DNA of 64,000 bases, taken from assembly GCA_002633005.1 (NCBI GenBank), contig NMRA01000532.1, positions 114,032 through 178,031 on the forward strand, written 5' to 3'. Numbering within the stretch: the first letter of the stretch is position 1; the number at the start of each line of letters is the position of its first letter. The stretch comes from Phoronis australis (Eukaryota; Animalia; Phoronida). Shown piece after piece: positions 25,978 to 49,303 of the stretch. Both the position numbers and the translations under genes were made by a program. The notes beneath the pieces are model-generated. The model did no database searches. It saw nothing but the letters and a program-made list of their open reading frames with translations, and was not told the origin of the DNA.

Positions 25978-27624
25978 CTCAAACATCATTACGTGTTGTA
26001 TGCTCATATTGGTTTCTTCACATAGAACAAATTTGACATGTACTTTGGAAATCAGGAAGAGGTTAGCAAAAAAAAAACAGTCTAGCAAGATATGAAGTTC
26101 GCCGTCTCATATTACGCCATGTACAAGCATGTCATGCGCTCAACCATTCCAAAATATTGGGGGCCCGAATATTTTAGAATGTGGCCCTTTCACTAATAAA
26201 ACGGGTTACGTTCACAGCTATGAGTTGTTCACTCGCCGAATTTGGGTAATTCCTGCCTTTTTAAGGGACTTTTGTCTCGTTTTCTACTTCTTTCCTAGTT
26301 TGTGTTTCTCTGAGGCGGACCTTTTTGCAAACTTCGCTAGTTTGTTAATCAGTTCCAACGGGTAACCATTTTTTGCAAATTGACTGTAAGGCTTTTCATA
26401 TCTTATCAAATCCACCCAAAGTGTTGTTAATAGTCAGTCCATATAAAAGACAGTAGATTTTCAAAAGTCAGCCTATACGTCAAAATTCAAAACAAATTTA
26501 TTTTTTGAACATTGATAGGTATCCTAACAAAAATGTAAATGCCATATTTTGTGCACTCAATGACCACTAATTTCGCCACTGGAGCACTAAATCGCAATTA
26601 GTCATATTAGCCATCTCCAAAATTGTAAAAATAAGTAATTTACAAATTAGATTGAAAGTTGTACTTTTGTGGCTGACATAACCAATATATATATTGTAAA
26701 TAATTGTTTGGTAGTTACTCAAATTGAACTTCTTTTTACTAGACAAGGGAGATAATCCACAGACCACTTTTCCTTGCTAATTCGAGTGGTTTATGCGACC
26801 TCTTACTGCCATATTGCACATTGTAGCTTTATGTAATTTTTTTGAATAGACAGCTAATGAGTAAATCTTGATGACTGACCAAAAATATCTTGCCTCAATT
26901 TACTTTTAGTGAAAATTGTCTTGCACAACTGTCTATTTTGGATATGAGGAGCAGAGTTTACAGACAAATTGAACGATATTTTGAACAAGAAATCTGCTTT
27001 AAATTGTTATGAAAATAAAATGTATGGTCTTTCAAATGTAAACAAGTTGTTTCTGCAAGTATTACGCTATCAATATCAAAACTGAACCTGATGACTTTGG
27101 TCTAGTTAGTCAGTTGACATTAGGTTGAGGATATATAGAAATATTGTACATGTAAATTTTGTTTTCTTTCATTATCATTTATTTGACAATTTCAGATCAA
27201 CTAAATGAAAACAAATGCATTTGAAGTTTGAATTTGTGAGAAATGTTATTTGTAAAAACTGGTTTTGAGGTTATCATGTTCTTAAAGACAAAATGAAGAA
27301 CGAAGATCATTCATGCTCGTTTAGAGAATTTTCATCAAACAAGTGCGATCCCAAATGCTTTGTTTCTTCAGTCAACCATTCTAAAGACACTTCAGAACAT
27401 CTGAGATGATGTAAAGTACCGCATAAATCGAGGCCAGTTGCAGAGTATGGGCTCGTACTAGCCAGGATAGCTAAATATGTGACTGAGCAGGACCAGTCGT
27501 GGAGTCAGGAGACTACTATTCGTAGCAACTTGCGGGGACATTACGATATGAACGAAAAATTACAATGTGTTTTGACCGAGTCGAAGATTTTCTTGCACTG
27601 AACACAGAGCCATAACCCTCGTAA

Positions 27625-29464
27625 AAGAGAATGCCACCCGATTTAATTAGTCTTTTTACCGTCTTAATCGGTCTACGTCCACATCGCCTCTTATACGTTC
27701 GACCTCACTTTGCCGAGAGGCGTCGCGTTAACCTGTGAGGATGGTGAGAAACGACGCAGCGACGTCAGTGGTTCGTCTGCAGAGTTAATGCCGCTATATT
27801 GGGTGCATCGTTCCCCGCTTGTCTGATTTATGAAGCTGCGAAGAAAGCGGGTATATCGTTTTTTCGACTTCCTCGAGAGCCAGAAATGCTTAGGAAGTGG
27901 CTCGCCGTATTAAAGAATGAAAGGTACGCTATTAATAGCAAGTATGAGGCCCTGAAACATCTCCATGTCCGGGGCCGGCATTTCGTCGACAGCGATTTCT
28001 CTGAAGGATTCCACCTTACCAAAGAACTATCCATACGTTCCGTTGTCTGTGCATGTTCATGGCGCCTCTCTAATATTTCTTGATCCGTGTATTCCGGTTC
28101 GAAATGATAGCTTGTGAAACCTAACGATCCGACCCGTGAAGTCTTCGTCGGATGAGCTCTTAACTAAGTCGGGATTGGGGCTGGGCGAGTTGCCAAATGA
28201 ATTATTCTCATCCTAACCAATGCATATATAAAACTGAAACAAAGTCTGTCTCATTAGATACAATTTGTAATGCCTATGCAGTATTCGTGAGTGCAAATGT
28301 TGAGAAGCCAGCAATGAATAAACCACTGCGTTACCGGCCTTTTATGCTGGCAATGAATAAAGGTAATTGACCGGGCGTGTGAGCGCATGCTAATTCAGTG
28401 TTCGCTGACAGAAAGCTGTTTTGAAACAATTTCTCGATTTTCTATGTTAAGGTCACATGTTAGGGGAATCTTTATTTAGAAATACAAATACATTACTCAA
28501 ATCATTTTTAATGTGCAACCGTTGCCCTGACTGTCTGTGGAAGGGGAAGCCGACTTCGCGGCACCCGACAAGTAAGTACTAGATTTTCAGATTCGTGGCT
28601 AATTCTCTTAAATAATTACGTGCACATTATTTCTTTGGCTTACTATTATCAGTGTTGTAGTGGGGCGTACGCGCACGTAGGCCTAGCCAACCACCTTTTA
28701 GCATTTGAACAAAGCGCCTACGCACCGTAAGTTACGTTCAGTGCTCAAGGTGATACCGTGGGCTTTCGGCTCCTAATTGCCTCTATTTCACCACCACAGC
28801 ACTTACTATTATAGTCTTTTCGTGAGTGGAAGTTTAGTTTCCAACTCAAGCTGGTTTATGTTCGTGCCAGTCCCGGCTGCCGCGACGGGCCTGATCGGGT
28901 TCTGAGCCACTGGCCAGAATAACGAGTGAGTCCGGGCGCGACGGGCCTGATCGGGTTCCAAGACACTGGCCGGGATAACAAGTGTTTTGTGTGTTTAGAA
29001 CTCAAAAAATCACAAGTCTAAACAACATAGGTTCTCTTCTCTGTATTTCACGGAAGAATAATTCGAATTTATCTCCGAACAGACCCAAACTCCTGCTACG
29101 GACCTTGGTAAATTGGACTGCCGAACTTTGTAGGCTACGGTGTATCCAAATACCAATAAAACCGTAACAGCGAAATAAAGCAACATGTTTTTATAAAAAC
29201 TCGGTGTATTTTTAAAGGTTTTAAATCGACGTTTGATTATTTATTGGTGTTAAACGATGAATTCAAGCTATAACCTGACACCAGTAACCCATGTTTTGAA
29301 CTGCCGAACAGACTGCGTGTGAAACCAATGACGTCATTGGATAATTTCAACACCTCCGTCTGCCGTCAGGTGTCAGGTAACGCAACAGAACGTGCCGTTA
29401 TCGAGTAGAACTACTCAATCTAAATTGATACAAAATGGGTTGTTTGTTTGGGTGGCATTCTCCT
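27625..29464 (+). mobile_element. Non-autonomous Kolobok-like DNA transposon with THAP-domain remnant
   Basis: TIRs A(A/G)GAGAATGCCACCC / GGGTGGCATTCTCCT, flanked by gtaa/TTAA. Internal ORF remnant GISFFRLPREPEMLRKW...HVRGRHF has the THAP signature. Confidence 0.85.
28650..28804. mobile_element. hAT-type MITE nested in the Kolobok-like element; duplicate at 44692-44847
   Basis: 8-bp TSD actattat on both sides, CAGTG termini. Empty site visible in the related element at ~46444. Confidence 0.85.
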
Positions 29465-31214
29465 TTAAGTGACTCCCTTCTTGCGTCACTGACTCTGACA
29501 CGAAGATAAAAAACACGAGTAAGGAAGATTTGGCTGGTAGTTGCGTCCATAGCTTCCATGTAAACAAACAGCGACGCCATCTATCATTTAGCCGAAGCAC
29601 ACACGCCAGTCACATTTTATGTACATAATTTTTGTAGTAAACAATAATCATCTGTATGGCTTTGAGAGAATGGTAATTAGTAATGCTCCCTGTTTTTTCT
29701 CTAAATTACAAGCTCTTTACCTCGTTTTTGCAAACTAATCTCACGTTTCAGGAGGCTCCCTATTGGTGGTTGAGGCAACTGAGAATAGGCAAACAGGACG
29801 ACGTACAGTTGGTGTAATGCTTCGAAAGCAAAAACTACGGGAGAGGCAAGATTTTTGATTTTAGATGATGGAGAGGTTAGAAATGAATGAGCAAACTATC
29901 ATAAGGTCAGTTTTTAAAAGCTGCAAAATGGCTGCTACAGAGTTCTAAATTTGGCCCTAGATGGTTTTAGTTAAAACCTACAGAATAGCCGTTTTTGCCA
30001 CACAAAATCGTAACATACAAATTTGAAAATGAATCTTGAAACTTATACCATTAAATTATTCAATCATAGTCCTTTAAAACTGTATTACTCATTTCTTATT
30101 ATCTAGCTATACTTGCTAGTAAAATGTATTCAAACGTATCTACTATGGCGCCCAATTTTGTTGCAAAATGGAGGTACATGTCATAAAAAGAGAAATAATG
30201 GATGAAAACTCTTAAAAAGCGTAATTTTTCTACATCTCATCAAACCTAACTAAACTCGTGTACTAAGTCTAAAAAAATCTGTGATTTTTGGCTATAGACA
30301 CTGCCTGTTGGTTTTTATATGGAGTCACTCTTAATGTGATAAACCCGATCAATCAACGTTTTGGCGAAACCGGTCTGATGCATATCGAACGTAAAACTTT
30401 GATAGCAAATTTACGTTTTTGTACTACCGAACCCTTAGTACGTTTGACTATCGCATCAAGAAAGGCCATCTGATTTTCAGTCTCAAAGTACGTACATGTA
30501 ATGAATTTCAAATTCGAATGCCTGGAGTTTGGTCTTACGACCAGAGTCCGTGGTTTAATGTGCTTGTTGTGGATCCGTGTTTGGTGAAAATACTCGCCAT
30601 GTTAAACCCAGGCTAAGAACTTTTCGATACTGACAACTATGGTCACAATAATGACCACTTACAGCGATCCAGTCACTGTAATGGTGAATGCACCGCATTC
30701 AGTCCCAGAATCCTTCGCAATTCGTCACACCACGCAAGACCATAGAACTTCCAATGGTTTTCGGAATCTGTTTTACAATAAGCTTCAGTTGCTTTGCTAC
30801 CAAATGTAGCGGTGAGTTCGCTGACCCTTCTCTTCGGGTAAGAAATAAGCGAGAAAAAAACCATAGTCTTAGGCACAACAACTTTATTTCACTATCTCCT
30901 CAACCAGAACCTTCAACGTCCAGCCGGCCACAACGCACGTGAAACGAAGTAGTAATTCACATGAAAATATCCCGCGTGACCCATATTGTTACATATAGAC
31001 AACGACAAGAGTTAAGCAAACCGGGGTGGGTGTCNNNNNNNNNNNNNNNNNNNNNNNNNNNNNNNNNNNNNNNNNNNNNNNNNNNNNNNNNNNNNNNNNN
31101 NNNNNNNNNNNNNNNNNNNNNNNNNNNNNNNNNNNNNNNNNNNNNNNNNNNNNNNNNNNNNNNNNNNNNNNNNNNNNNNNNNNNNNNNNNNNNNNNNNNN
31201 NNNNNNNNNNNNNN

Positions 31215-31275
<61 letters not shown>
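31215..31275. repeat. (TG)n microsatellite abutting a gap; duplicate at ~49263-49301
   Basis: Direct reading. Confidence 0.98.
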
Positions 31276-31276
<1 letters not shown>

Positions 31277-32439
31277 GATTGCAATTACATTTTACACATT
31301 CTCCTTATATTTTGAAGCAGTCGTAATAAAAGTGATATTCGTACCTACTCACAATATTCCTTTCTACTTTTCTTTTGTAATGCAAACAAACTCCCTCGCA
31401 TGCATTTAACAAATGAGCAAAACACTCCGTGATATTCTAAAAATTAAGAACGTTACAATTTTTCAATTCTCAGAATGATACAAGAAGAGTCCAAATAGCG
31501 TTTCAATCATTTTTCATCCCCTTTCTTTTAGTGAGAACCTCCATCAAACGGATTTTAATGCAAAATACTTCAGTCCGGCGAAACGTACATGTAAGCACAA
31601 ATAACTCTAATTTAACACAACTCTAAGTATTTTCAAACTTAATTTTATTCGATTGTTTAGTTAATTGTTTATGTTTGGTGATATACCACTTCCTAAAAGG
31701 GCCGCCGCAGTGAATGACAGCTGACTCCTGCATTTTTTGCACTCATTCGACTGCCGCCATACATAATGAGGTCTCTGCGGTATCCCCGGCAACTGTTTTA
31801 TTAAAAAAATAAAATAATAAAAGTAGACTAAAATACAAACGGGGCTGGAAGTTATGAAAGGAAATGTTTATATTTTAGTGATATCTTTAGACTGTCGGTA
31901 CTCGTCTTGTGCTAACAGTAATTATATATTTTGCATACAAGTTTAGAGTGTTGTTACTTTTGCGGCTCGCTGTTGGTCAACTTCGAATTACCTGCATACA
32001 CCTCATAATAATACACGCAAACCTCACGGTTCTAAACTTGTAAAAGATTGGATAGTTCAATCAGCAAGTTAAGCCATTTGTTAACTTTCGTGGACATTTT
32101 TCAAAAATGCGATAATCACATATTGTATATATAAAGTGTATGTTGTACAACGTAAGTGTTTGTACCAGAGGTTATTATATCGAGATTCGTGGTATGCAAA
32201 ATGCGAGAGGGCTCTAGATAAGGGGGCAACGACTGAGAACATGTAATAATCTATTTATACCACATACTGAACGAAAAACATTGCTATGAATCGATCTACC
32301 GGCTTTTGTAACCACCTTCTATGCTAGAGGTCTGAGTTCAGCGGTCGTGACCTTTCAAGTTTTTCTCGTTAAATGATGTTCTTACTTAAAACCGAATAAA
32401 AACTAAAACGGAAATAGAACTAAACTGAATCTGTAATAA

Positions 32440-33835
32440 AAGATAATCACTTACTTACAGACGGTTCAGGTTAGACACAGGCATTTCGGTCTGGTCCGAC
32501 AGTCCTTGTTCGATGAGTGAGGGGTTTTCCTCCTTTCGCTGATTAAGTACAGGCGTGCGTTCAGTAATACTAGGACCTACGCTAGGACCTAGCCAAAATC
32601 ATTTCTAACGCAAGTGTCCTTATTTAAAATACACAACAACATCTCACGTAATCTCGTGAAGTCTTGCTTTTTAGCGAAGTCCTAACGTTAGGAGGCACAG
32701 AACAGTTGTCACTGGGTTTTGCCCAGCAAAACCGACATCACTTGATTTGTCACCTTTTCTTCACTCTGTCAAAAACAGGATGCAAAGAATGACATGTTTT
32801 CAGTTATTTCCCATAAAAATCTCTGCAGATGAGCGCAGAAACTTTATTCTCTCTTGTATTTTTGACCCTTTCAATCCCACTGAAAACCAAGCTAGACTAA
32901 AAACAAATAGTGGCAAAAAGTGCAAAATCGGCACTTTTCACCCCCAAAACACCACTTCCCTGCCGATGCACGACTAAAATCAACAATACATTCTGAAAGC
33001 AAGTTTCCTACAGATTCCGAAAATGAGGTCTAAAAGTATTGTCAACCAACTAGTTTTTTGGCAATACTGGCTTATTTGAGGGCTACCTAAAATCGCAGCC
33101 AATTTCACAGTCGCTACCCAGCAATGCACAATTGCAACCGGGGGCCGCCATCTTGAAGAAGAGTGCAGCTACAGCCGAGAAAGTGGCCTTTTTATTCTAA
33201 GCATGTTCACAAGTGCAAACAAACCACATTCACTGAGCCTACATGCAATGTCCACCTACAAAATTCCCCTAACTTTAGCCTACCCCAAAATTTCAATATT
33301 TTGGCAGTGCAAATTGGCCGCAGCCGCAGCCTAACTATTCAGTGCCACCTTACTGAACGGGAGGCAGGTATGTTCGAATACACGGGAGGTAAGTGCAGAC
33401 CTCTGTCCAGCGTTCAAAAGAGGGGCGGCGCTGAGTGCAGATATTTATGGATTCTTTTAACTTGCGAGCATAAATGTTCATTGGAGAAACCAAAAGACCG
33501 TTCCTAACCAGATTCATAGAACACCAGAAATTAGACATACCCGCATTTTTGGGGCAACACATATTGGCGACTGGACATTCTATCGCCCTTGAATCACCTA
33601 AGATCTTACTAAGAACAGAATTGGTATGCTCGCAATTTAAAAGAGTCCATGAACATCAGCAGTCAGCGCCTTCTCTTGAACCGGGACCGAGGTCTACACT
33701 TACCTCCCGTGTATTCCAACATACTTAATCAGCGAAAGGCGGGAAACTCTCACTCATTGTAAAAGGCCTGGCAGACCAGGCCGAAACGTCTGCGTTTAAC
33801 CTGAACCGTCTCTAAGTAAGTGATTATCTTCTATT
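32440..33835 (+). mobile_element. Penelope-like element 3' remnant with an inverted terminal duplication, interrupted by nested MITEs; duplicate at ~49783-51125
   Basis: GIY-YIG remnant IGETKRPFLTRFxEHQK...HILATGH at 33474-33600. 32440-32549 plus 33368-33472 is the reverse complement of ~33625-33830. Confidence 0.8.
32691..33349. mobile_element. PIF/Harbinger-type MITE; duplicate at 49998-50639
   Basis: tta|ggaggcacagaa ... ttcagtgccacc|tta: imperfect TIRs with 3-bp TTA TSD. Confidence 0.8.
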
Positions 33836-34836
33836 GCAATACCTGTAGAGAACAATGACCAACTAATTTTCCTAAAGTGATCTGTAAAATATTTTTATTT
33901 TAAGCATCTACTCTAGCTTACTACACATCTTATAAATGCTAAGCTCCCACCTTGAAAATTTCGTCTGCTAAAGTAGGTTACCACTGGTTACTGAGTTTAA
34001 TGTCCAAGTCAAAGCACCCCGACCAGGCAAACGTTATTCGCATTCAAACTGGAGATCAATGGTTTACAAGTGAGAAAAAACTACAGACAAGTTTTACTAA
34101 ATTAAAGATGTCGTTTTTATTGAAAATTTGCGGTACAACACCCTTTTGTTGAACATGCAATTGTTGCGCGTGCTCATATAAGTATTCCATTATCACGTTC
34201 CATGACGTCAGCCGCTCAGTGATGCAGTGGTAGAGTCGACGGACCTAAACTCTTTCCGACCTGGCTTGAAACCTGCCTCGGTTTCCCGCCAAAATGTTAT
34301 TCAACGGTGTTAAGTAACTAAATGGGTTATTAAATGGTTATATTGGCCATTCGAAGCTGATATTGTGGTATAAAAACTGGTATCTCTATTGCTATCAATG
34401 CCCTTGAAGATATTTGAATGCGTCATTTATGTGCAAACTCTGAATTGATTGAATTTACTTCAAATATACGGCAAATGTATCGGCCCTTTCAGGCCTTTCA
34501 ATTTGAGACGCTTCTGACAATTTTGAATATTGATTTTTCTTCAGTGCCTAGGCAGACTTGCACAAATATTTGCATATCAATTTCACAATCTGTGGCCGAA
34601 GGAAAGACAGTGTTCTTGAATTTTCAATTTTATGTTAAGACCGCAGGGACGTCGGGCAATATCACATGTATCACATTATCACCTGCTGGAATTAACACCA
34701 TAATTAGATGTTAAAGAACAGTGTGAATGTGATTCAATATGACTTTCCAGCTTCCGTTTCAGGAACAACTCAATTTCCGGAATCAGGGAATAAATTAGCA
34801 TTTTGACTGTATTTTCAGGAGCAAAACAGTATTTTT

Positions 34837-34980
34837 CATGGGCGGCGCAGCACTAAAAAGTGGCAGGGGGCTAAAGCCCCTCAGCCCCCCTGTGGTTCAC
34901 CGTCTAAAGACCATGTGCGGCGTAGCACTGAAAAAATTGGGGGTTACATCCCCCCAGCCCCCTATGGTTCACCGCCCATG
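34837..34980. mobile_element. Small MITE with internal dimeric structure; duplicate at ~53007-53152
   Basis: tttt|catgggcgg ... ccgcccatg|tttt; absent from the homologous position near 62440. Confidence 0.7.
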
Positions 34981-34984
34981 TTTT

Positions 34985-36060
34985 AGAATCGAACCCACTA
35001 CCTCTGCAGTCACAAAATAACGCCCTACACTTGTTAAATGACCAAGAATTTTCTGAATATTTAAACGGTAGCAATACTTGCTAGCATTTTAGTGAATGTC
35101 TGGCCGACCACAGCGAGAAATGGCGAGTTGTAATGAAATCACAAAAACGCAGTGACTTTGTTGTTTTACATCTCTACCAGCAATCTTTGACACTTAAAAT
35201 AATTATGAAAATGCGCTTTCCTGCCAAAATATGATGTCCTTTTATTGGTGAAAGGAGCATTATATTCTAAAAACGTTGTTTTATTAAATTCAGTCTCACC
35301 GTGGGATCAAACGCCGCTGAGCTAACTCACTCTCATTAAACATCAAAGTATTTCAAGCATACACAACACAGACATCATTGATTTCATAAAATGTTTGTCA
35401 GACAGCAACATTGGATTTTGTTATTTCACAGCTCTAGTCAAATCTAATTATCTCGAGAAATGTATGCCACCCAACACTATTCGTAAAATACATATTTTCC
35501 GCACAGCTGATAGTCTCCCGTTGCGAGATAAACAAAAAGTTCTTTTGAATACGCCGCACTGCGGAATCGAATCCGGTAGCTCCGCAGTCGCTGATCAATA
35601 TCCAATGCTGAACAAAGTAATTTACTATTATTTTATAGGCAATAACAACAGCGAGAAATGGCGATCTATAATAAATTTACAAAAAACCAATGGATGTTGT
35701 CTGCTAATAACTTCAGGAAATCTCTGCTGCCCAAGAGTAATAGTAAAATTGTATATTTTGGTGGTAAAAGCGATGATTTTCCCTTAAAGATTTAAAGAGA
35801 AATTATTGGCAAAAACGTATTTTTTCTAAAATAAACCGCACAATGGAATCAAACCATGCATTGTACCGATGACCTAATTCCCACGCTGGTAATTTTCAAG
35901 TATTTTTAAGTTTACTGAAATGGTAGCGACACCGGCAATAACTTCAGCGAATGTCTGGTAGAAATGGTAATTTGTAATAAATTCAAAAAACATAATTGAT
36001 TTTGATGCCTCAGAGCTTTGGCCAATGGTAGTGATTTATATATGCCGCCCAACAATAACT
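34985..36060. repeat. Old degenerate ~270-310 bp satellite with a Pol III B-box-like motif; homologous arrays at ~53155-53915 and ~62450-63370
   Basis: Recurrent (g)gaatcgaa(c/t)cc, cagcgagaaatggcga and gaatgtctggc motifs at ~34987, 35303, 35563, 35845. Confidence 0.6.
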
Positions 36061-36953
36061 GTAGAAAAGTTTTTTTCGGTGGCAAAACAAACAGTGTGTC
36101 TTTAAGTGTTAAAGAGTAGCAGCGGCCATAGCCTAATGCTGTACAGCTGAGCTATTAAAGATTTATAAAATGACGAAGGATGCTAGGCCAACGATACCGG
36201 CATTGATTTCGCCGAATGTCCGGCAGACAACAACGTGAAATTGTATTTTGTAATTTAGTAACAAGAACGCAACGGATTTTGTTGCGTCATAAGTTTGGCC
36301 TCGGCAAAAAGCTTTAAAGAATTCTCTCCCATCCAACAGTAATACAAAAGTGCGTTTTTTGTGGTAAAACCGCTGTCAGTTCCCACGACCTCAAAGCCGC
36401 TGAAACATAGCTAAGTTGGAAATCGATTTAATTGTCTGATTTTTCAAGTACTTGAGGGTGATTCTCGTATCCACTGTCCTCTCTTTCTGCATAGTAATTT
36501 TTCATTTTTCGCTCAAAATCATCCTAGTCTTCCGATCTGATGTGTTCTGCCTTTGCAACTAACTGTCAAGTGATTAAACGCCTTTCAAACATGACATCAT
36601 ATGGCGGAAAACTTGGAAAATTTTTTTTTTTCAAAATTGATAAATTCGCAACCATTGCCATAAACGTACTTAACGAGCTGGATGAAACCTCAAAAACTAA
36701 GGAAAATTCATGGTGGGAACTCTTTTAGGTAATCGACATCGATTATCCAAGAGGTACGTCACTCAAGATGCCATGTTTAAACAATTTTAACGATTTTACT
36801 ATCATGTATTAAAGAAAGTTCTTAACGAGTAAAACTTAATGAGCAACGACGACTCATGGATTAAGCTTCATCATTACGAACGGACAAAGCACACACTAAC
36901 ATCTACACTAGTTGCACCGAGAGGTGGCTCTTTTTAGGAGTTACGAAAAAATA

Positions 36954-38156
36954 ATGAAGAATAAGGAAGACATTTTGTCCGAGTTCTGCTGCACAACCTC
37001 CTGCCATGGGGCGTCTCAACTATTGAATGATAAATATGGCAAAATATTACGGATTGGAATGGTAAGTTGCACGTTTTTGTGTAATCTGACTTTTACCTTT
37101 AGCGATTATCATGATCGGTTAATTGATGAGTAGATGAGGGACATTATTAATCACCCAATTGAATTATTAGATGCAGAAATTATATATCACAACTTATAGA
37201 ACTTTCTGTAAGAATTTCCTCGACTTTTCTGAGCAGCCTGGCTCCTACTAATCTAAACTCTGCAGTGTATGAGCACTCGTTCAAGACAGCATACATGGTG
37301 GTTCTGGAGAAAAAGAGATCTGGTTTAGGTTGGTATCAGATTATTGGGTGAAAACCAGGAAACCCGGTTTGAATAGATCTGGAAGTTTTCTATTTAAATT
37401 ATATGAGTCACGGGCCCGGGGTCTAAAGGTGTTGTCTTTGAACATTAGGATACAGCGACGTAGTATTCACTGGAATCAATCTGTCAGTTTATTACAAACA
37501 GCCAGGCGCCGCCGCCACGTCGAGAAAACTAAACCACACTAACGTTCAGCAGTTGAGATTTTCCATTTTCGCACTAAATTATTTGGAAATAAACCGTATT
37601 GTTAAACATCGTTCAGTCAAGGACATTATTTTGTCATTGAATCTCTGACAATCCATCCCCAAGATGCCATGTGTTCCCTCATAATCAACTCGACGACCTC
37701 GTTTTGGTGCCAACTGCTAACGATAAACTCGTCACGTATGCCAATGCCCTCGATAAATCCTTAGGTGTACCATGGCAAACGGGATGGATCATCTCCAATA
37801 ACAATGTTACAGTTTGAAGTTCGGCATGAGCTAATTAGAGATGAGTAAAACTTGATTCCGCCTTACAGGTGATGTTACTTCTCGCCAGTCTCACGACAGC
37901 AGCAGTCAATGTGGTGTTGTCTGATCACAAATTACTACACATACCCATTCCACCAAACCGTGGAGAAAACATTCACAGCAAACAGGCCCTTCCCAAGTGT
38001 TTCAGTTTGTAATATGGCTGCAGGCACGACGAGTCAGATCGAACAGCTTTACATGAATCTATTATCTTCAAGAAAATGTCTATCATATGACTTCAGAAAA
38101 TATCATGAAAAAATAAGAAATATGGAGGCTATCCACTCGTTTTCGATAACGTTGAC
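36954..38156 (+). pseudogene. DEG/ENaC type B' copy with intact exon 1 (36954-37061) and frameshifted, truncated exon 2 (37869-~38156)
   Basis: +1 G at 37923 leads to TAA at 38010-38012; one A is missing from the run at ~38108-38113. Homology to exon 2 stops at GATAACGTTGAC (~38156) and switches to type A intron sequence. Confidence 0.9.
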
Positions 38157-38700
38157 GGATTTTGACTTGTTTTCGTCAGTGATATGGTTTGCTATGTTAT
38201 TTGTCTAAATTACGGCTGCAGGCCTTGCAGTTTTTGTCTAAGAACCTTGGCAGAGGGACCCAATCAATCATCGTTCAAACGCAAATTGAGCACGAGGCTC
38301 GGCAACGTCAGAAAAACTATTGCAGTACGGTACATTTCAGAGGTGGCATATTTAAATTTGTTCGCATCAATTGATAGGAAAGTTGGAGTTTGTTGGAATT
38401 AACCTGTATTGTTATTAACCCTAAATTAGTATTTCATTATTTCGCAAACAACCGGTCACCGGTCACAAGTTCATTGAACCGTTCAAACACTATTCATAGT
38501 GAGTACGACAGTAGTTTGCGTAATTACTGTGGTGCCTGTTGCCTCCGATAATCTTGACTAATGTCATCCGTTACGGTACCATCAACAAATCCTTTGGTGT
38601 AGAATCAGCCACTGTGAACACAACCATCCCCAGAAACTTTATTCAAGTTTGAAGTTATCAAATTTTGCTTGACTTAAACTTGACCTACTCATCATTCTAG

Positions 38701-40071
38701 GTAGTACTGCTAGTCGGAAGTCTCACGACAGCAGCAGCCAATGTGGTGTTGTCTATCAGAAACTACTATAGATATCCATATCACCAGACGGTGGCGAAGA
38801 TATACACAGCTGACAAGCCGTTCCCCAGTGTCTCAGTTTGTAATATGGAGGCCGTCACATCGAGCCAGGCTCATAATGTTTTCATGCAACTTATACCTGT
38901 CTTCAGAAATTGTCTATCAGATGACATTGTCAGGTATACCGAAAAAAACAAGAAATATGGAGGCTTTCCTATGTTTTACGATAACGTTGACACGATTGGT
39001 GACTACACGTGGAAACTGGAGGATATCGTAATTGATTGTAAGTACGACAGCAAGAAGTGCAACGACAGCAAAATAACCGAGTTTTTAAATTCCTATTACG
39101 GACGATGTTTCACGTTTAGCATGGACGACAATGCTATGAAAAAAATTGGCGACGAGAACGGACTATCGCTTATCCTATTTTCGTATTCTCCAAGTTTACA
39201 ACAACAGACAAACATGGCGTCCAAGTATTCCACTTTGACAGATCTTAATTCTCACGGTCTCAGAGTAATTGTGCATAATAAAGGAGAGTTTATAAATCCG
39301 TCGGTAAATTCCATCAAAATAGCGCCAGGATTCTCCACGTCCATTGCGGTTCACCCGTTGAAAACAAGGCGACTTGGTCCTCCGTTTAAGTCTAATTGCA
39401 CCGATAACAGTGGGAATTCGAAAGCAAATTGTCTACGTGCTTGTGAACAGTCTCATGTAGTCGATAGATGTCACTGCAAAGATTCAGACCTGCCGATACA
39501 CCGGCATTCTCTAGTGTCATTCTGTGGTAATATTACGGCTATTGTCAATTGCACTTACGAAAGATGGTCAAACCAAGTTGACTGTATGTTGAAAGCAAAG
39601 AACGAATTCCAACTAAAGTATTACCAGCACTGCGACTGTCAGGAAACTTGCGAAGAGTACAGTTTTAAGTTAAGTCAGTCTGCGTTTATTTGGCCCAATA
39701 ACTATGCCCCAGCTGCATTTTACAGGCAATATGTCAAGAACAAGACTTCGTCTATCGCCTTCAAGGAAATGTCGAAATACAATATGGACTTTATGTTGAG
39801 CAAAAAGTTAATCAACCAACACTTTGCGCAGGTGAACGTTTTCTTCAATAACGACGAAGTCGAAGAGATTACCGAGACAGCTAAGTATCCCAATTGGACA
39901 TGGAGCTTGCTGTCCGAAATTGGAGGCCATTTGGGCTTTTGGTGCGGCGTTTCTATTCTGACACTAACCGATGCCGTATTTTTCGGATTGAAAGTCATTC
40001 TCCATGGGCGAAAATCACGTGGAGTCACTAGCGATTTCAGTGTAAGACAAGTCAAGAACGATGAAAAATGA
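38701..40071 (+). CDS. Intact exon 2 of a type A DEG/ENaC copy with no exon 1 of its own (could splice in frame to exon 36954-37061)
   Basis: Acceptor atcattctag|GTA at 38700/38701. Uninterrupted ORF with ~22 aa differences (counted by eye) from the ORF at 20780-22108. Only the 3' ~540 bp of the type A intron lies upstream. Confidence 0.85.
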   Translation, partial: VVLLVGSLTTAAANVVLSIRNYYRYPYHQTVAKIYTADKPFPSVSVCNMEAVTSSQAHNVFMQLIPVFRNCLSDDIVRYTEKNKKYGGFPMFYDNVDTIGDYTWKLEDIVIDCKYDSKKCNDSKITEFLNSYYGRCFTFSMDDNAMKKIGDENGLSLILFSYSPSLQQQTNMASKYSTLTDLNSHGLRVIVHNKGEFINPSVNSIKIAPGFSTSIAVHPLKTRRLGPPFKSNCTDNSGNSKANCLRACEQSHVVDRCHCKDSDLPIHRHSLVSFCGNITAIVNCTYERWSNQVDCMLKAKNEFQLKYYQHCDCQETCEEYSFKLSQSAFIWPNNYAPAAFYRQYVKNKTSSIAFKEMSKYNMDFMLSKKLINQHFAQVNVFFNNDEVEEITETAKYPNWTWSLLSEIGGHLGFWCGVSILTLTDAVFFGLKVILHGRKSRGVTSDFSVRQVKNDEK

Positions 40072-41345
40072 CGCTATGAATCTAATTCACCTACATGTTA
40101 TGTGTTCATACCATTTATATTCATGTAGAAATGTAGGACGACATGTACATGTACTGTGGATGTGGCGAAGAGGCTAGCGTATAATACTAATGCATGCACG
40201 CACACAGGGGGCTCGGGGGCTCGAACAAGCTCCCTATTTGGCGAAGCGGGCAAAAAAATCCTCTTCAAAGAAATAGGAATTCCCAAAAAGTAGAAAACTG
40301 GAGAAAAATTCCACTAAAAAGGCAGGAACTACCAAATATCGATGAAAGCACAACTCATAGCTGTGAAAGTACCCAGTGAATCGTCTTTTTAAGCAAAAGG
40401 TCCACTCTCAAATTCGAGCCCCCCGATTTTTAGGCTGGGTGCGCCCATTCAGTGTTGCAAGTCACATAGTTAGCTAGCTAAGCTATTACACGTATTCAGA
40501 GGCCGCGAACACGAGGTGTGTTGTTCAGTGACCACATGGGTATCCCACTAAAAACAACATGGCATCTTTCTAGCAAGTTGAACTCGTTCCACATACTGTT
40601 TGACATTTTCAAACAGCTAACTCACGCAGTTACTGATGGCTAAAAGGGCATACCAATGACATGGCCCATGGGAGAGAGAGAAATCTCATTAATATTGCTA
40701 GAATACGCTATACATATAAATATATAACGGAATTTTCGTACAAGCAGCAGGTATTAAAACGAAGCTTGTTCTAGACATATCCGTACGTTATTTAGTTATG
40801 TTTGTTGTCAGATGTAGCTTAATTTACATGTGTCACGTGATATATTAGCGAGTTTTTGTTACCATTTTCCTCTGGTGATGGCAAGTTGCTGTCTAATAAA
40901 CAGGGTGTTTAATTGCGGTTGTTGTCGTGCTTATGTGAACTCTTGGACACTCGCTCCCCACTATTGAACCGGACGATCGGAGAGATTTCCGTACGTACTT
41001 GCAAGCGGTGAGAACAAGCCCGGATGCTCGGGGGAGAGACAGAGCAACAAATGAAGACGCTCCCTCCCTGCCTGGTACACAGGCTGAAAGTAAACAACGT
41101 CCTTTCGATTGAAGTCACAATGCTGTGTCGTGCGCTCACGCCGACTTCTTGGTGCTTTTCGGCATGTGCGTTATCAGCACGAAAAGGCTCTGCTAAACCT
41201 ATACGATTGCGTGGGTTGTTTTTGTTGAAATTTCTTTTCACGGTCACTGCAAGGCGAGTGCACATGGTGTACAATTCCATTAAGTAAACGATATCGATTC
41301 TCCAAGAGGTACGCCACTTAAAATGCCATGCTTAAACGGTTTTAA

Positions 41346-42563
41346 AGGAGAATGCCACCCGATTTAATTAGTCTTTTTTACCGACTTTTAAGTCGGTAAA
41401 AAAGACTAATTAAAATCGGTCTATATCCACATCGGCTCTTATACGGACGACGTCACCTTGCCGAGAGGTGTCGCGTTAACCTTTGAGGAAGGTGAGAACG
41501 ACGCTAGCGGCGTCAGTGGTTCATATGCAGAGTGAATGCCGCTATGTTGCGGTGCATCGTTTTCGCTTGTCCGAACTAAGCAGCTGCGAGGAAAGCGGGT
41601 AAATCGTTTTTTTTTACTTCCTCGAGAGTCCGAAATGCTTAGGAAGTGGCTCATGGTAGTGAAGAATGAAATGTACGCTGTAAATAGCACGTATGAGGCC
41701 GTGAAACATTCTCTGTGTGTGTGGCCTGCAGACGTCGACAGTGCCTGACGAATGCCGGCTTACCAAATAACTCCATACGTTCCGTTGTATGAGCTTGTTT
41801 ACGGCGCCTCTCTAGTACTTCTTCATCACTGTATTCCTGTTCGAATTGATAGCGTGTAAAACTTAACGATCCACCTGCGAAGTCGGGACTGATGATCGAG
41901 CTCTAGCTCGTCCTAAGTCGGGATTGCGAGTTGCCATGTTGGCGTTTTACTGAGCGTTGTGTTTCAAAATGAATTATTCTCACCCTAACCAATACTTATA
42001 GAAAACTGAAACAAAGTCTGTCTCATTAGATGCAATTTGTAATGCCTTTGGAGTGTTCATGAGTGCTAATGATTTGAGAAGCCAGCAATGAATAAATCAC
42101 TGCGTTACCGGCTTTAGGTGCAATAAAACTAATTGACGGGACACCGAGGCCGTGTGACCTCATGCTAATTTAGTGTTTACTGGCAGAAACTGTTTTGAAA
42201 CAACTCGATTTCCATCCCACGACCAGGTGTTAGGGAAATCTTTATTTACATTTACATTACACAAAGAATGATTGTCAATGTACAACTTCTGCCCTGACGG
42301 CCTGCTGTCAGTGAAAGCGGAGCCGGAATTCGCGGCCCCCGACGAGTAAATAGATTTGCAGTTTCACCAACATAATCACGTGAAAATTACTTTGGCTCAC
42401 TAGTATGGTATTTTCTTGACTGGAATTTTAGTTTCCACTGAGCTTTGGCTGGTTTATGGTCGTCATGTTTGATCAGTTTCCGAGCCACTGGCCGGGATAA
42501 CCAGTCAATCCGGCGGTCTGCGACAGGCCTGAACGGGCTCCGAGCCACTGGCCAGGATAACAA
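41346..42563 (+). mobile_element. 3'-truncated Kolobok-like THAP element
   Basis: TTAA|AGGAGAATGCCACCC 5' end and THAP remnant MPLCCG...FFLLPRESEMLRKW; no 3' TIR. Confidence 0.85.
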
Positions 42564-43673
42564 AAATGTAAATGCCACATTTTGTGCATTCAATGACCCC
42601 TAATTTTGCCGCTGGAGCCTTAGAACGAAATTGGTCATATTAGCCATCTCCCAAAATTGTATGTTCTCGGCAACGAAAATAAGTAACTTACAAATTAGAT
42701 TGAAAGTTGTACTTTGGTGGCTGAAATAACCAATATATATTGTAAATAATTGTTTGTTATTTACCGAAATTGAACTTCTTTGTGCTAGACATGGGAGATA
42801 ATCCAAAGACCCCTTTTCCTTGCTAATTCGAGTGGTTTATGTGACCTCTTATTGCCATATTGCACCTTGTAGTTTTATGTAACTTTTTTGAACAGACAGC
42901 TAATGACTAAGTCTTGATGACTGACCAAAATTATTGTGCCTTAATTTACTTTTAGTGAAAATTGTCTTGGACAACTGTCGATTTTGGATATGAGGAGCAG
43001 AATTTACAGACAAATTGAACGACATTTTGAACAAAAATATCTGCTTTAAATTGTTATGAAAATAAAATGTATGGTCTTTCAAATGTAAACAAGTTGTTTT
43101 CTGGAAGCATTACGCGATCAATATCAAAACTGAACCCGATGACTTTTGTCTAGTGAGTCAGTTGACATTAGGTTGAGGATATACATGTATAAAAAATTGA
43201 ACATGTAAACTTTTGTTTTCTTTCATTATCATTTACTTGACATTTTCAGATCAACTAAATGAAAACAAATCCATTTGATGTTGGAATTTGTGAGAAATGT
43301 TATTTGTAAAAACTGGTTTTGTTCTTAAAGACAAAATGAAGAACGAAGATCATTTATGCTCGTTTAGAGAATTTTCATCAAACAAGTGCGATCATAAATG
43401 CTTTGTTTCTTCAGTCAACCATGCTAAAGACACTTCAGAACTTCTGAGATGATGTAAAGTACCGCAAAAATCGAGGCCAGTGGCAGAGTATGGGCTCGTA
43501 CTAGCCAGGATAGCCACATGTAAATATGTGACTGAGCAGGACCAGTCGTGGAGTCAGGAGACTACAATTCGTAGCAACTTGCGGGGACATTACGATATGA
43601 ACGAAAAATTACAATGAGTTTTGACCGAGTCGAAGATTTTCTTGCACTGAACACAGAGCCATAACCCTCTTAA

Positions 43674-46600
43674 AGTAGAATGCCACCCGATATAATTAGT
43701 CTTTTTACCGTCTTAATCGGTCTTCATCCACATGGCCTCTTATACGGTCGACTTTATCTTGCCGTTAACCCGTGAGGAAGGTGAGAAACGACGCAGCGAC
43801 GTCAGTGGTTTGTCTGCATAGTTAATGCCGCTATATTGTGGTGCATCGTTCCCCGCTTGTCTGATTTATGAAGCTGCGAAGAAAGCGGGTATATCGTTTT
43901 TTCGACTTCCTCGAGAGCCCGAAATGCTTAGGAAGTGGCTCGCGGTATTAAAGAATGAAAGGTACGCTGTTAATAGCAAGTATGAGTACCTGAAACATCT
44001 CCGTGTCTGTGGCCGGCATTTCGTCGACAGTGATTTCTCTGAAGAATTCCAGCTTACCAAAGAACTATCCATACGTTCCGTTGTCTGTGCATGTTCACGG
44101 CGCCTCTCTAATATTTCTATATCAGTGTATTCCGGTTCGAACTGATAGCCTGTGAAACCTAACAATCCGACCTGTGATGTCTTCGTCGGATGAGCTCGTA
44201 ACTAAGTCGGGATTGGCGCCGGGCGAGTTGCCAAATGAATTATTCTCATCCTAACCAAAGCTTATATAAAACTGAAACAAAGTCTGTCTCATTAGATACA
44301 ATTTGTAATGCCTATTCAGTATTCGTGAGTGCAAATGTTGAGAAGCCAGCAATGAATAAAACACTGCGTTACCGGCTTTTGATGCCGGCAATGAATAAAG
44401 GTAATTGACCGGGCACGAAGGCCGTGTGAGCGCATGCTAATTCAGTGTTCGCTAACAGAAAGCTGTTTTGAAACAATTTCTCGATTTTCTGTTATGGTCA
44501 CATGTTAGGGGAATCTTTATTTAGAAATACAAATACATTACTCAAATCATTGTTAATGTACAACCTTTGCCCTGACGGTCTGTGGAAGGGGAAGCCGACT
44601 TCGCGGCACCCGACAAGTAAGTATATTTTCAGATTCGTGGCTAATTCACTTAAATAATTACGTGCACATTATTTCTTTGGCTCACTATTATCAGTGTTGA
44701 ATTGGGGCGTACGCGAACGTAGGCCTAGCCAACCACCTTTCAGCATTTGAACGTAGCGCCTACGCACCGTAAGTTACGTTCAGTGCTCCAGGTGATACCG
44801 TAGGCTTTCGGCTCCTACTTACCTCTACTTTTACCACTACACCACCGACTATTATAGTCTTTTCGTGATTGGAGGTTTAGTTTCCAACTCAATCTGGTTT
44901 ATGTTCGTGCCAGTCCCGGCTGCCGCGACGGGCCTGATCGGGTTACGAGCCACTGGCCGGTTAACAAGCGTTTTGTGTGTTTAGAACTCAAAAAATCACA
45001 AGTCTAAACAACATAGGTTCTCTTCTCTGTATTTCACGGAAGAATACTTCGGATTTCTCTCCGAACAGACCCCAAACTCCTGCTACGGACCTTGGTAAAT
45101 TGGCATGCCGAACTTTGTAGGCTACGGTGTCTCCAAATACCAATAAATCTGTAACAGCGAAATAAATCAACACGTTTTTATAAGAACTCGGTGTATTCTT
45201 AAGGGTTTTACATCGAAATTTCGTGATTTATTGGTGTTATACAATGAATTCAAGCGATAATTTGACACCAGTAACCCGTGTTGTAAACTGCTAAACAGAC
45301 TGCGTGTGAAAGCAATGACGTCATTGGATAATTTCAACACCTACGTGTGCCGTCAGGTGTCAGGTAACGCAACCGAACGTGCCGTTATCGAGTAGAACTA
45401 CTCGATCTAAATTGATACAAAATAGGTTGTTTTTCTGGGTGTCATTCTCCTTTAATCGGTCTATTTACACATTGCCTCTTTTACGGTCGACCTCACCTTG
45501 CCGAGAGTTGTCGCGGTAGCCTGTGAGAAAGGTGAGAAACGACGCAGCGACGTCAGTGGTTCGTATGAAGAGTGAATGCCGCTATATCGCAGTGCATCGT
45601 TCCCGCTTGTCCGAAATATTAAGCTGAGAAGAAAGCGGTTATATAGTTTTTTCGATTTCCTCGAGAGCCTGAACAGCTTAGTAAGTGGCTCGCAGTAGTG
45701 CAGAATGAAATGTACGCTGTTAATAGCAAGTATGAGGTCCTGAAACATCTCCATGTCCGGGGCCGGCATTTCATCGACAATGATTTCTGTGACGAATTCC
45801 GGCTTACCAAATAACTATCCATAAGTTCCGTTGCCTGTGCATGTTTACGGCGCCTTTCTAGTATTTCTTGATCAGTGTATTCCGGTTCGAATTGATAGCC
45901 TGTGAAACCTAACGATCCGATCCGTGAAGTCTTCGTCAGATGAGCTCTTGACTATCTAAGTCTGGACTGGCGCCGGGCGAGTTCCCATGTAGACGTTTTT
46001 TGCTTTCTGTTTCAAAATGAATTATTCTCATCCTAACCAATGCTTGTATAAAACTGAAACAAATTCGTTCTCATTAGATACAATTTGTAATGCCTTTGCA
46101 GTATTCGTGAGTGTAAATGTTGAGAAGCCAGTAATGAATAAACCACTGCGTTACCGGCTTTTGATGCCTGCAATAAATGTATTTGACCGGGCATCGAGGC
46201 CGTGAGAGCGCATGCTAATTCAGTGTTTCCTGACAGAAAGCTGTTTGAAGCAATTACTCGATTTTACATCTATGGTCACATGTTAGGATAATCATTATTC
46301 AGAAATACAAATACATTATTCAAATCATTGTTACTGTACAACCTTTGCCCTGACGGCCTGTGGTAGGGGAACCCGATTTCGCGGCCTCCGACGAGTAAGT
46401 AGATTTTCAGTTTCGTGGCTAATTCCCAGTATTTCTTTGGCTCACTATTATAGTCTTTTCGTGATTGGAGGTTTAGTTTCCAACTCAAGCTGGTTTATGT
46501 TCGTGCTAGTCCCGGCGGCCGCGACGGGCCTGATCGGGTTCCAAGCCACTGGCCCCCGGGGATAACGAGTCAATCCAGCCGCGACGGGTCTGATCTGATT

Positions 46601-47093
46601 CCAAGCCACTGGTCGGGATAACAAGATATTTGTGTGTTCAGAACTCAACACAGTTCTAGGTTCTCATGTCTGTATTTCACGGAAGAATACTTTGAATTTA
46701 TCTCCGAACAAACCCCAAACTCCTGCTATGGACTTTGGTAAATTGGCCTGCCGAACTTTGTAGGCTACGGTGCGTCCAAATACCAGTAAATCCGGAACAG
46801 CGAAATAAAACAACATGTTTTTACAAGAACTCGCTGTATTTTTAAAGGTTTTACAACAAAGTTTGATTATTTATTGGTGTTAAACGATGGATTCAAGCGA
46901 TAACCTGACACCAGTAACCCATGTTGTGAACTGCTGAATAGACTGCGTGTGAAACCAATGATGTCATTGAATAATTTCAACACCTCCGTGTGCCGTCAGG
47001 TATCAGGTAACGCAACAGAACGTGCCGTTATCGAGTAGAACTACTCAGTCTAAATTGAGACAAAAGGGGTTGTTTTTTGGGTGGCATTCTCCT
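43674..47093 (+). mobile_element. Head-to-tail dimer of Kolobok-like THAP elements (43674-45451 and 45456-47093)
   Basis: TTAA|agtagaatgccaccc; 3' TIRs followed by TTAA end at 45451 and 47093. Best-preserved THAP ORF 43825-44145 (MPLYC...AC...FFRLP...W...RVCGRHF). Confidence 0.85.
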
Positions 47094-47731
47094 TTAAGTG
47101 GCTCCCTTGTTGTGTCACTGGCTCTGACAACGAAGATAAAAAACACAAGTAAGGAAGAGTCGGCTGGTAGTCGCGTCCACAGCTTCCATGTAAACAAACA
47201 GCGACGCCTTTTATCATTTAGACGAAGCACACACGTCAGTCACATTTTATGTACAAAATATTTGTAGTAAACAATAATCATCAGTGTGGCTTTAAGATAA
47301 TGGTAATTAGTAGTGCTCCCTGTTTTTTTATATGATTTTTGCAAGCTAATCTCACGTTTCAGGAGGCTCCCTATTGGTGGATGAGGCGACTGAGAATAGG
47401 CAAACAGGACGACGTATAGATGGTGTAGATACTCGCCATGTTAAACCCAGGCTAAGAACTTTTCGATCCTGACAACTGTGGTCACAATAATGACCACTTA
47501 CATGTACAGCGATCCAGTCAATGTCATGGTGAATGCACCGCATTCAGTCCCAGAATCCTTCGCGGTTCGTCACACCACGTAAGACAATAGAACTTTCAAT
47601 GGTTTTCGGAAACTGTTTGGCAATAAGCTTCAGTTGCTTTGCTACCAAATGTAGTGGTGAGTTCGCTGATCCTTAATTTCGGGTAAGAAATAAGCGAGAA
47701 AAACACCATAGTCTTAGGCACGACAACTTTA

Positions 47732-49073
47732 CGTAATGATAAAATTAAACGAACTACGGCCTGTTTAGGACTTGATCAAGGGGGAATTGAAATGGTTAAT
47801 ATGCATACTTTCAGCAAAGCTTTAAAACTTGCTATGGCCCGTAGATATCTGGAAAGCCCTGGGTCTAAAAGTGGTGAATTACTGTACTCACTCTACCCGT
47901 TCTTAAAGAATTTTGCTTCATTTGGGATGACTTTATTAAGTCGAAGTTAACTCTAATTGGTAATTCCTACTGGCGCGACGTATTTGAAAGTATGTTATCT
48001 TTCTACAAGAAAATAATTGTTGCAAGTAAAGAGGACTTTTTGAACCAACCTTTGTGGTTTAATAGTAACTTGGCGATCGGAGGCACAGGTGTTTTTTATA
48101 AGCCTTGGTTACTTTGTAAAAGGCTTAAGATTTATTAGAGATATGTATACCTCTGATGGTGATTTTGTTAGTCTAAACAATATGAAAAATAGGTTCGACG
48201 TGAAAACCAACTTTGTAGAATATAATGGTGTTGTTTCTGTTCTAAGAAGGTTTCAAAAAAGTCTATTTCAAAGTAAATTTAAAAGTGTTAATGTCTACTC
48301 TCCTTGCATGCCTTTAGCAATTACTCACTTACGGAAAGATTTGAAGGGTTGTAGACATATTTGTTCAGTCTTTAATAACGTTAAGAAACCTAAGTCAGAG
48401 TCTAAATGGGAAATAGAGCTAGGAGATAGTTTAGATTGGAAGAAAATATATGCTTTACCTTACAAAATTACAAAGGATCCCCATATTAGATGGTTCCAAT
48501 TTAGAATACTACATAGAATTATTGCAACAAATACCTTTTTAGTCAAAATATGTGTTAGGGATTCTGATCTATGTTCCTTTTGTAATAAAGCTCCAGAGAC
48601 GCTGTCACACCTTTTTTGGGAATGTAGCTTTGTACAAGATTTCTGGAAGGAATTCGAAAAGCTACTTCAAAAGTGTGGCATTCAGCTTCCCAACTGTCTG
48701 TCTTACGATATTGTTATTCTTGGACTTTACAAGACGCAAGATTTCCTATTTAACATTTTACTTCTACTAGCTAAACAGTACATTTAGAAAGAGAGATGTC
48801 ACAAAAATATACCTAACTTTCTCAAGTTCGTTACAAAAACTTATGAATACTATAATGCTGAAAAATTAAATGCACATAAAAACTTTGTACATGACAGCTT
48901 CTCTGCAAAATGGGAAAAATTTATTGTTCATGTTAACTTCATGTAGAAGATATTTACTTTAAACGAGATATGAGAATGGTCTTCCTGAGGTGTGCATGCG
49001 TGAATGAATGGTGTACTTATTTGTTTGTTTGTTTTTGTAATTGTTTGTAAATGATAATAAATACATAAAAAAC
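47732..49073 (+). mobile_element. 5'-truncated L1/Tx1-type LINE insertion
   Basis: ORF2 C-terminus (QGGIEMVN; zf-RVT-like WFQFRILHRI...CSFC...ETLSHLFWEC), AATAAA and A-tail, acttta TSD (47726-47731, 49074-49079). Empty site at ~30881. Confidence 0.9.
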
Positions 49074-49266
49074 ACTTTATTTCACTATCTCCTCAACCAG
49101 AACCTTCACCGCCCAGCCGGCCACAACGCACGTGAAACGAAGTGGTAATTTACAAAAAATATCCCGCGTGACCCATATTGTTACATATACAGTAGACAAC
49201 GACAATAGTTAAGCAAACTGGGGTGGGGTGACAACCACGCCCACACGCCCGCACGCACGCCCGTGT

Positions 49267-49303
<37 letters not shown>

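What the first reader, a model, noticed from the sequence alone, without database searches (positions are those of the whole stretch)
36954..40071. Duplication junction creates a potentially functional chimeric DEG/ENaC gene
Seen: type B' exon 2 switches at ~38152-38160 (shared ttgac and attt microhomology) into the type A intron (homologous to ~20186-20200). The downstream type A exon 2 has no exon 1 of its own. Both introns are phase 0, so splicing 37061 to 38701 gives an in-frame ~492-aa channel with the B' upstream region and N-terminus and the A ectodomain and pore. The intervening B' exon fragment has two frameshifts in ~290 bp, while the 1371-bp A exon has none. Inference: selection may maintain a promoter-swapped new gene. 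Caveat: the B' acceptor at 37868 is intact and would have to be skipped.
Basis: partly seen in the sequence, partly recalled or inferred. Interest (0 to 1): 0.85.

Follow-up and report, generated by a model that had tools for sequence, protein, structure and literature searches.

The report
Real duplication junction, unproven chimeric channel
A tandem duplication of about 18 kb really does place the start of one ion-channel gene in front of the intact body of its neighbour, but it is likely carried on only one chromosome copy, no joined RNA was seen, and the signs of selection likely predate the join.

Summary
The anatomy is as described. The window holds an array of two-exon DEG/ENaC genes (A, B, B'') and an ~18 kb tandem duplication (20194-38162 / 38159-56049). 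Its junction fuses B' (exon 1, intron, frameshifted exon-2 stub) to the A' intron and intact exon 2 at a 4-bp ATTT microhomology; splicing 37061>38701 gives an open 492-aa frame. The junction is no mis-join: an identical 152-nt contig bridges it in 2 of 2 DNA runs laid there (one sample), and both frameshifts stand in one run. Contig depths suggest it lies on one haplotype only. Selection on the chimera is not shown. A/A' dN/dS is 0.32, but the dead B' stub's own substitutions are 6 synonymous of 8, and a third A allele seems to share A' variants, so divergence likely predates the join. An intact A' is expected about 28% of the time without selection. Three RNA runs from other samples gave no 37061>38701 joint and no read on B' exon 1, at low power. 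The protein would be 94.5% identical to A: a promoter swap, a known kind of structural variant.

The parts
20194..38162 (+). Copy 1 of the ~18 kb tandem block (A intron 3' part, A exon 2, gene B, spacer, B' 5' part)
   Evidence: self-BLAST; non-coding divergence from copy 2 6.9% over 10,158 aligned bases
38159..56049 (+). Copy 2 of the block (A' intron part, A' exon 2, spacer without gene B, B'' 5' part)
36725..36953 (+). B''-type upstream region in front of B' exon 1 (promoter function inferred, not tested)
   Evidence: homology to 54583-54816 and 23415-23657
36954..37061 (+). B' exon 1, 36 codons: N-terminus, HG motif, start of TM1; protein identical to B'' exon 1, 1 synonymous difference
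37062..37868 (+). B' intron, GT..AG, with an intact acceptor that competes with the A' acceptor
   Evidence: B'-specific contig 37425-37661 in X1
37869..38162 (+). Truncated B' exon-2 stub; +G at 37923, -A at 38107; B''-like to ~38075, B-like from ~38086; if spliced in, stop after 83 aa
   Evidence: both frameshifts in X2 contigs
38152..38162 (+). Duplication junction: crossover within ATTT 38159-38162, TTGAC at 38152-38156
   Evidence: bridged by identical 152-nt contigs in X1 and X2
38159..38700 (+). 3' part of the A-type intron; its first ~40 bp belong to a dispersed repeat
   Evidence: summed contig depth 330-484 at 38155-38199 in X1 with loose ends at 38159 and 38196-38202
38701..40071 (+). 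A' exon 2, 456 codons, open: rest of TM1, ectodomain, TM2 with GVS filter
19535..22108 (+). Gene A (exon 1 19535-19639, exon 2 20738-22108), 491 aa, parent of the 3' part
23658..25977 (+). Gene B (23658-23765, 24598-25977), 495 aa
54817..57135 (+). Gene B'' (54817-54924, 55756-57135), 495 aa, parent of the 5' part

Best explanation
The junction is a real duplication breakpoint in a tandem array of DEG/ENaC genes, likely present on one haplotype only and likely made by a microhomology-guided join between two already diverged, functional sequences, so the chimeric reading frame is likely a by-product rather than a selected new gene. Shown: the join, its 4-bp microhomology, the open 492-aa frame, both stub frameshifts. 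Inferred: a strand from B-type exon 2 joined the A intron about 18 kb upstream, probably on the other homolog, so copy 2 began several percent divergent. Inferred: when the B' promoter fires, the spliceosome would meet the intact B' acceptor first and give an mRNA with a stop after 83 codons, likely degraded; the chimeric mRNA needs skipping to 38701 and would be at most a minor product. If made, it would be an A-like subunit (464 of 491 positions identical) under B'' regulation.
For: Junction bridged in X1 and X2. Per-contig depth in X1: junction 22.1, B'-only pieces 16.1 and 19, against B''-type 34.9 and B-type 33.1; in X2: junction 3.7, B'-only 5.6, against B''-type 9.5 and 9.67 (assigned). 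Three A-type copies in the sample: depths of 42, 45.6 and 50.7 fit 3 copies (38-57 expected) and not 2 (21-35), and 2 A-type contigs leave the A' sequence at 38319 while depth 20.6 runs on. A'-identical contigs at 38432-38611 and 40347-40547 have double depth (32.6, 37), and one exon contig carries the A letter at 7 and the A' letter at 5 of 12 diagnostic sites, as if a third allele shares A' variants. The dead stub's own substitutions are 6 of 8 synonymous, so it diverged while still coding. With neutral time set by those 2 non-synonymous changes, a neutral A' would stay open with P=0.28 (range 0.01-0.86). No in-frame cryptic donor rescues the stub (1 site at 7 of 9 consensus letters, stop at 83 aa). 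RNA: 0 depth in the bin over B' exon 1 in 3 of 3 runs and no listed 37061>38701 joint.
Against: Two frameshifts in the stub and none in A' (P=0.03); two indels are more than the stub's short neutral time predicts (P=0.02), which allows an older junction. Changes assigned to the A' branch are 12 synonymous and 11 non-synonymous, dN/dS 0.26, and those that seem private to A' stay synonymous-rich (4 of 6, or 5 of 9; P about 0.03). In X2 the piece shared by A and A' has depth 8.2, nearer 2 copies than 3; one B'' intron contig in X1 has 26.8, between the classes. Contig depth is a rough copy measure. At 38795, 13 of 15 RNA reads lack the A letter, and at 39624 a read has no other difference from A', so A'-like alleles may be transcribed. 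The RNA samples may not carry the duplication, and B-type exon 1 was unread altogether.
Confidence: 0.6

Rival explanations
1. The chimera is expressed and kept by selection: the stub has no downstream donor and is skipped (or its product is degraded), leaving an A-type channel under B'' regulation.
For: Open frame with matching phase; A' branch dN/dS 0.26; 2 versus 0 frameshifts; B' exon 1 has 1 difference in 108 against 5.4% in its intron; A'-like letters in some RNA reads.
Against: Half depth of the junction; synonymous-rich stub shows the same purifying signature in a part that is now dead; no joint and no exon-1 read although A-type exon-2 bins sum to about 2-4.5x over 3 runs; intact nearer acceptor.
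Confidence: 0.2
2. The two blocks are an older segmental duplicate in which B' and A' were complete genes; a later deletion on one haplotype removed the 3' end of B' and the 5' end of A', leaving the same junction.
For: The copies differ by 6.9% in non-coding DNA, by 59 indel events and by kb-scale changes (loss of B, a LINE-like insert); it explains purifying signals in both A' and the stub.
Against: Depths give about 3 A-type copies, not 4, and one B'-type copy: no complete B' or A' gene is seen on the other haplotype; it needs more events.
Confidence: 0.14
3. The junction is an assembly artefact that strings two haplotypes in tandem.
For: 6-8% divergent tandem copies in a gapped assembly look like uncollapsed haplotypes; the DNA runs may be the assembly's own sample; which allele sits in which copy may still be mis-phased.
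Against: Contigs built from reads bridge the junction letter for letter in 2 of 2 runs, with 39 and 109 letters beyond the microhomology; the nearest N gaps are at 31035 and 51941.
Confidence: 0.04

Closest known systems
Segregating chimeric genes made by tandem duplication in Drosophila yakuba / D. simulans (PMC4069613, PMC5460883; passages read)
   Same: Both breakpoints inside different same-strand genes; the 5' end of the downstream gene drives the 3' end of the upstream gene; polymorphic. 78 and 38 such chimeras were found; 24 of 76 changed expression; they tend to be at low frequency.
   Different: Here the two parents are paralogs, one breakpoint is exonic and one intronic, so an intact acceptor must be skipped; expression is not shown.
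CHRFAM7A (human partial duplication and fusion of the CHRNA7 channel gene; search listing and abstract starts only)
   Same: Polymorphic, duplication-born fusion involving a ligand-gated ion-channel subunit.
   Different: CHRFAM7A is expressed and structurally deficient and fuses unrelated genes; this one would be full length, nearly identical to parent A, and has no expression evidence.
Promoter-swap hybrids between tandem paralogs (CYP11B1/CYP11B2, haemoglobin Lepore/anti-Lepore; recalled, no call)
   Same: Regulation of one paralog, coding body of the other.
   Different: Those arise by homologous unequal crossover at matching positions; this join is non-homologous, at a 4-bp microhomology.
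FMRFamide-gated sodium channels, FaNaC (PDB 7yvb, 8on7; PMC9234716, passages read)
   Same: Best structural-database matches (E 3e-34, 1e-33); DEG/ENaC architecture; R288 and R324 equivalents kept.
   Different: About 30% identity; 5 of 7 peptide determinants differ; the window proteins form a long separate branch outside the clade with named mollusc FaNaCs.

Membership tests
DEG/ENaC (Pfam ASC) | Match to PF00858 above the curated cut-off | tested here: met
   180.5 bits against cut-off 23.6, residues 2-428 of A' exon 2
DEG/ENaC (Pfam ASC) | N-terminal HG motif, two membrane spans, Cys-rich ectodomain, G-x-S filter (features recalled) | tested here: met
   HG in exon 1, hydrophobic windows starting at 29-38 and 447-453, 20 Cys, GVS
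DEG/ENaC (Pfam ASC) | Forms a trimeric cation channel | not testable with these tools
   no functional data
FaNaC | Seven peptide-potency residues (Aplysia F231, I281, R288, G316, R324, S447, R529; PMC9234716) | tested here: not met
   R288 and R324 kept; F231>G, I281>D, G316>A, S447>F; R529>Q read from the alignment (the motif search missed it)
FaNaC | Placement within the FaNaC clade | tested here: inconclusive
   Quick tree of 48 rows: the 4 window proteins form a long branch outside the SH-aLRT 92 group holding Lymnaea and Cornu FaNaC; long-branch warning, careful search unfinished
FaNaC | Gating by FMRFamide | not testable with these tools
   needs oocyte recordings
Chimeric gene from tandem duplication | Real junction with both breakpoints in different co-oriented genes | tested here: met
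Chimeric gene from tandem duplication | Open chimeric reading frame | tested here: met
   492 aa if 37061 is spliced to 38701
Chimeric gene from tandem duplication | Chimeric transcript exists | tested here: inconclusive
   no joint, no exon-1 read in 3 runs, about 18-19% of each run read, other samples
Chimeric gene from tandem duplication | Selection on the chimera after its origin | tested here: inconclusive
   dN/dS below 1 but confounded by pre-junction history

The most novel reading that the evidence does not exclude
A segregating, expressed chimeric DEG/ENaC gene caught at birth: a former coding exon has become intron, its frameshifts route the competing splice form to decay, and an A-type channel of an uncharacterised, very divergent invertebrate subfamily is now made under the B'' promoter and kept by selection.
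Probability: 0.2. Interest if true: 0.55.

Novelty: new member of a known kind. Interest (0 to 1): 0.28.

Why it matters
If expressed, it would be a testable case of a new ion-channel gene arising by regulatory swap, with exon-to-intron conversion, still polymorphic in a population. As it stands it is a well-documented example of how copy-number variation in a channel-gene array produces chimeric frames, and a caution: dN/dS below 1 between a duplicate and its parent says nothing about selection on the duplicate when the copies came from already diverged alleles. The channel subfamily itself (no relative above 35% identity among the best 150 hits) is uncharacterised.

Tried and rejected
No whole genome is held, so genome-wide paralog counts and heterozygosity could not be measured. 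The search for homologous proteins found nothing at E<=1e-10 among 3669 candidates; the HMMER search found only distant relatives. No RNA holder was listed for the stretch; this is no evidence either way. RNA reads near the junction (4 in X5, 7 in X6) lay only on the A-intron/repeat side; none bridged it; too few to say whether those samples carry it. I considered that the two frameshifts were assembly errors, because X1 contigs lack them; X2 contigs hold both, so rejected. I considered that the true cis parent of A' is identical to it and collapsed; the unbranched 152-nt junction contig argues against identity next to the junction, but not further on. Rfam: 0 matches in the window. A paper search for chimeric + ENaC + tandem duplication + invertebrate + degenerin gave 0 papers; a search on competing duplicated acceptors gave nothing usable, so the preference for the nearer acceptor is recalled, not cited. 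(hemizygosity in marine invertebrates) was seen as a listing only and not used. Earlier scan notes: none for this place; one unrelated bacterial note. No structure prediction was run.

Full report
Anatomy. The window holds three complete two-exon DEG/ENaC genes on the + strand, A (19535-19639, 20738-22108), B (23658-23765, 24598-25977) and B'' (54817-54924, 55756-57135), and between them the B'/A' unit of the finding. All four full exon-2 copies match Pfam ASC at 180-188 bits. Self-BLAST shows that 20194-38162 and 38159-56049 are tandem copies of one ~18 kb block. The junction is therefore the seam of that block: the end of copy 1 (B-type exon 2) meets the start of copy 2 (A intron). Over 10 non-coding blocks (10,158 aligned bases) the copies differ by 704 substitutions (6.9%) and 59 indel events; copy 2 has lost gene B.

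The crossover lies within ATTT at 38159-38162, with TTGAC 2-3 nt upstream in both parents. Donor 37061 and both acceptors are canonical and in phase 0; the 37061>38701 product is 492 aa and open; the 37061>37869 product stops after 83 aa. The chimera is 464 of 491 positions identical to A; exon 1 contributes 5 substitutions and 1 insertion.

Is the junction real? I laid 2 of the 4 listed DNA runs (X1, X2; read-derived contigs, one sample, possibly the assembly's own) on 37900-38330. Each has a 152-nt contig at 38120-38271 with no difference from the window. X2 also has exact contigs over both frameshifts; X1 shows only the paralog letters there, as expected if small variants were dropped in contig building (inference). 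A mis-join at this point is thus unlikely; phasing of the rest of the two copies is untested.

Copy number (inferred from per-contig word depth, a rough measure; 16 of 42 pieces were shown and 8 of 463). In X1, pieces unique to the junction haplotype have 16.1, 19 and 22.1; B- and B''-type pieces have 33.1 and 34.9, and one B'' intron piece 26.8. In X2 the values are 3.7 and 5.6 against 9.5 and 9.67 (assignments). This points to one copy of the junction per diploid genome. A-type exon contigs at 42, 45.6 and 50.7 fit three copies, not two, and two A-type contigs branch from A' at 38319. Pieces identical to A' at 38432-38611 and 40347-40547 have double depth, the A-type piece at 38159-38265 single depth (15.1), and the contig 38799-39248 carries A letters at 7 and A' letters at 5 of 12 diagnostic sites. 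The simplest reading is a third allele that shares variants with both. Against: in X2 the piece common to A and A' has 8.2, nearer two copies.

Selection. A versus A' gives dS 0.066, dN 0.021, ratio 0.32 (P=0.0005). With B and B'' as outgroups, the A' branch has 12 synonymous and 11 non-synonymous changes (0.26), the A branch 5 and 8, with 5 unresolved. So A' was constrained for most of its history. The question is whether that history is before or after the join. The dead stub answers in part: its 8 B'-specific substitutions are 6 synonymous and 2 conservative in the old frame (P=0.002 if neutral). It diverged while coding, so the copies were already different when joined. Taking the 2 non-synonymous changes as the neutral clock, a neutral A' would collect about 10 amino-acid changes and stay open with P=0.28 (0.01-0.86; the share of nonsense changes, 4.5%, is assumed). 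They may come from a prior null allele, from error-prone repair or from an older join; I cannot tell. Variants that seem private to A' are also synonymous-rich, which fits either a third functional allele or selection on the chimera.

Expression. Three RNA runs of other samples (X5-X7; 1.6-1.8 billion letters each, 18-19% of each run) were laid on 36400-40600 at 90% likeness. Depth in the bin over B' exon 1 was 0 in 3 of 3, which at this likeness also covers B'' and probably B exon 1; no 37061>38701 joint was listed (joints need 3 reads). A-type exon-2 depth was low and uneven, partly from other paralogs; in the two bins I judged least open to this it summed to 2.0 and 4.5. At 7 listed diagnostic sites 26 of 26 read observations carry the A letter; at 38795 only 2 of 15 do; 40 of 195 rows were shown and they are chosen for showing differences. 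No RNA read bridged the junction. This leans against the chimera being the main A-type transcript in those samples, but they may lack the duplication, and the power is a few reads.

Mechanism. Shown: join, microhomology, open frame. Inferred: microhomology-guided template switch or end joining, likely between homologs, at the edge of a dispersed repeat in the A intron; the switch of the stub from B''-like to B-like at 38075-38086 suggests a conversion tract or a two-step event. Inferred: the nearer intact acceptor is used first (recalled rule, no paper found), giving a premature stop; the stub has no usable donor, which could favour skipping, so a minor chimeric mRNA is possible and might be the only stable product.

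Comparison. Chimeras from tandem duplications with both breakpoints in genes are common standing variation: 78 and 38 in two Drosophila species (PMC4069613, passages); 24 of 76 changed expression and they tend to be rare alleles (PMC5460883, passages). CHRFAM7A is a known channel case (listing only). The proteins are DEG/ENaC but not FaNaC by ligand residues: 2 of 7 determinants named in PMC9234716 (passages) are kept. The best 150 hits among 1.84 billion representatives are 25-35% identical; the named ones among 10 looked up are from an annelid, a brachiopod and snails; in a quick tree of 44 of these hits plus the 4 window exons the window proteins form an unplaced long branch. One search found no paper on a chimeric invertebrate DEG/ENaC from tandem duplication. 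No supplements were read.

Verdict. Real structural variant, likely on one haplotype; chimeric gene possible but unproven; a new member of a known kind. Interest 0.28.

Noticed in passing
window 41345 / 41343-42563: Copy 2 lacks gene B: homology to copy 1 stops about 175 bp upstream of the B start codon and an older copy of a ~1.2 kb spacer repeat stands in its place.
   Followed up: partly
window 47731-49074: About 1.34 kb insertion in copy 2 only, with a zf-RVT (LINE-like) fragment at 48044-48787 and ACTTTA at both ends.
   Followed up: partly
window 19535-57135: The channel subfamily is compact (one intron inside TM1, 491-495 aa), lacks most FaNaC peptide residues and has no relative above 35% identity in the best 150 hits; ligand unknown.
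   Followed up: partly
window 37923-37995: Seven substitutions and the G insertion specific to B' cluster in 73 bp, mostly synonymous: possibly a conversion tract from a paralog or allele outside the window.
   Followed up: partly
window 59330-63368: Older (72-78%) copies of the spacer that lies upstream of B' and B'', suggesting earlier rounds of duplication of the same unit.
   Followed up: no
window 137-1314 and 5974-7142: A separate 1.2 kb direct duplication at 88% identity.
   Followed up: no
window 40240-40450: High-copy repeat downstream of A' exon 2, abundantly present in RNA reads from other loci.
   Followed up: no
window 29816-30582 and 31720-32477: Two ~0.76 kb stretches present in copy 1 and absent from copy 2.
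   Followed up: no
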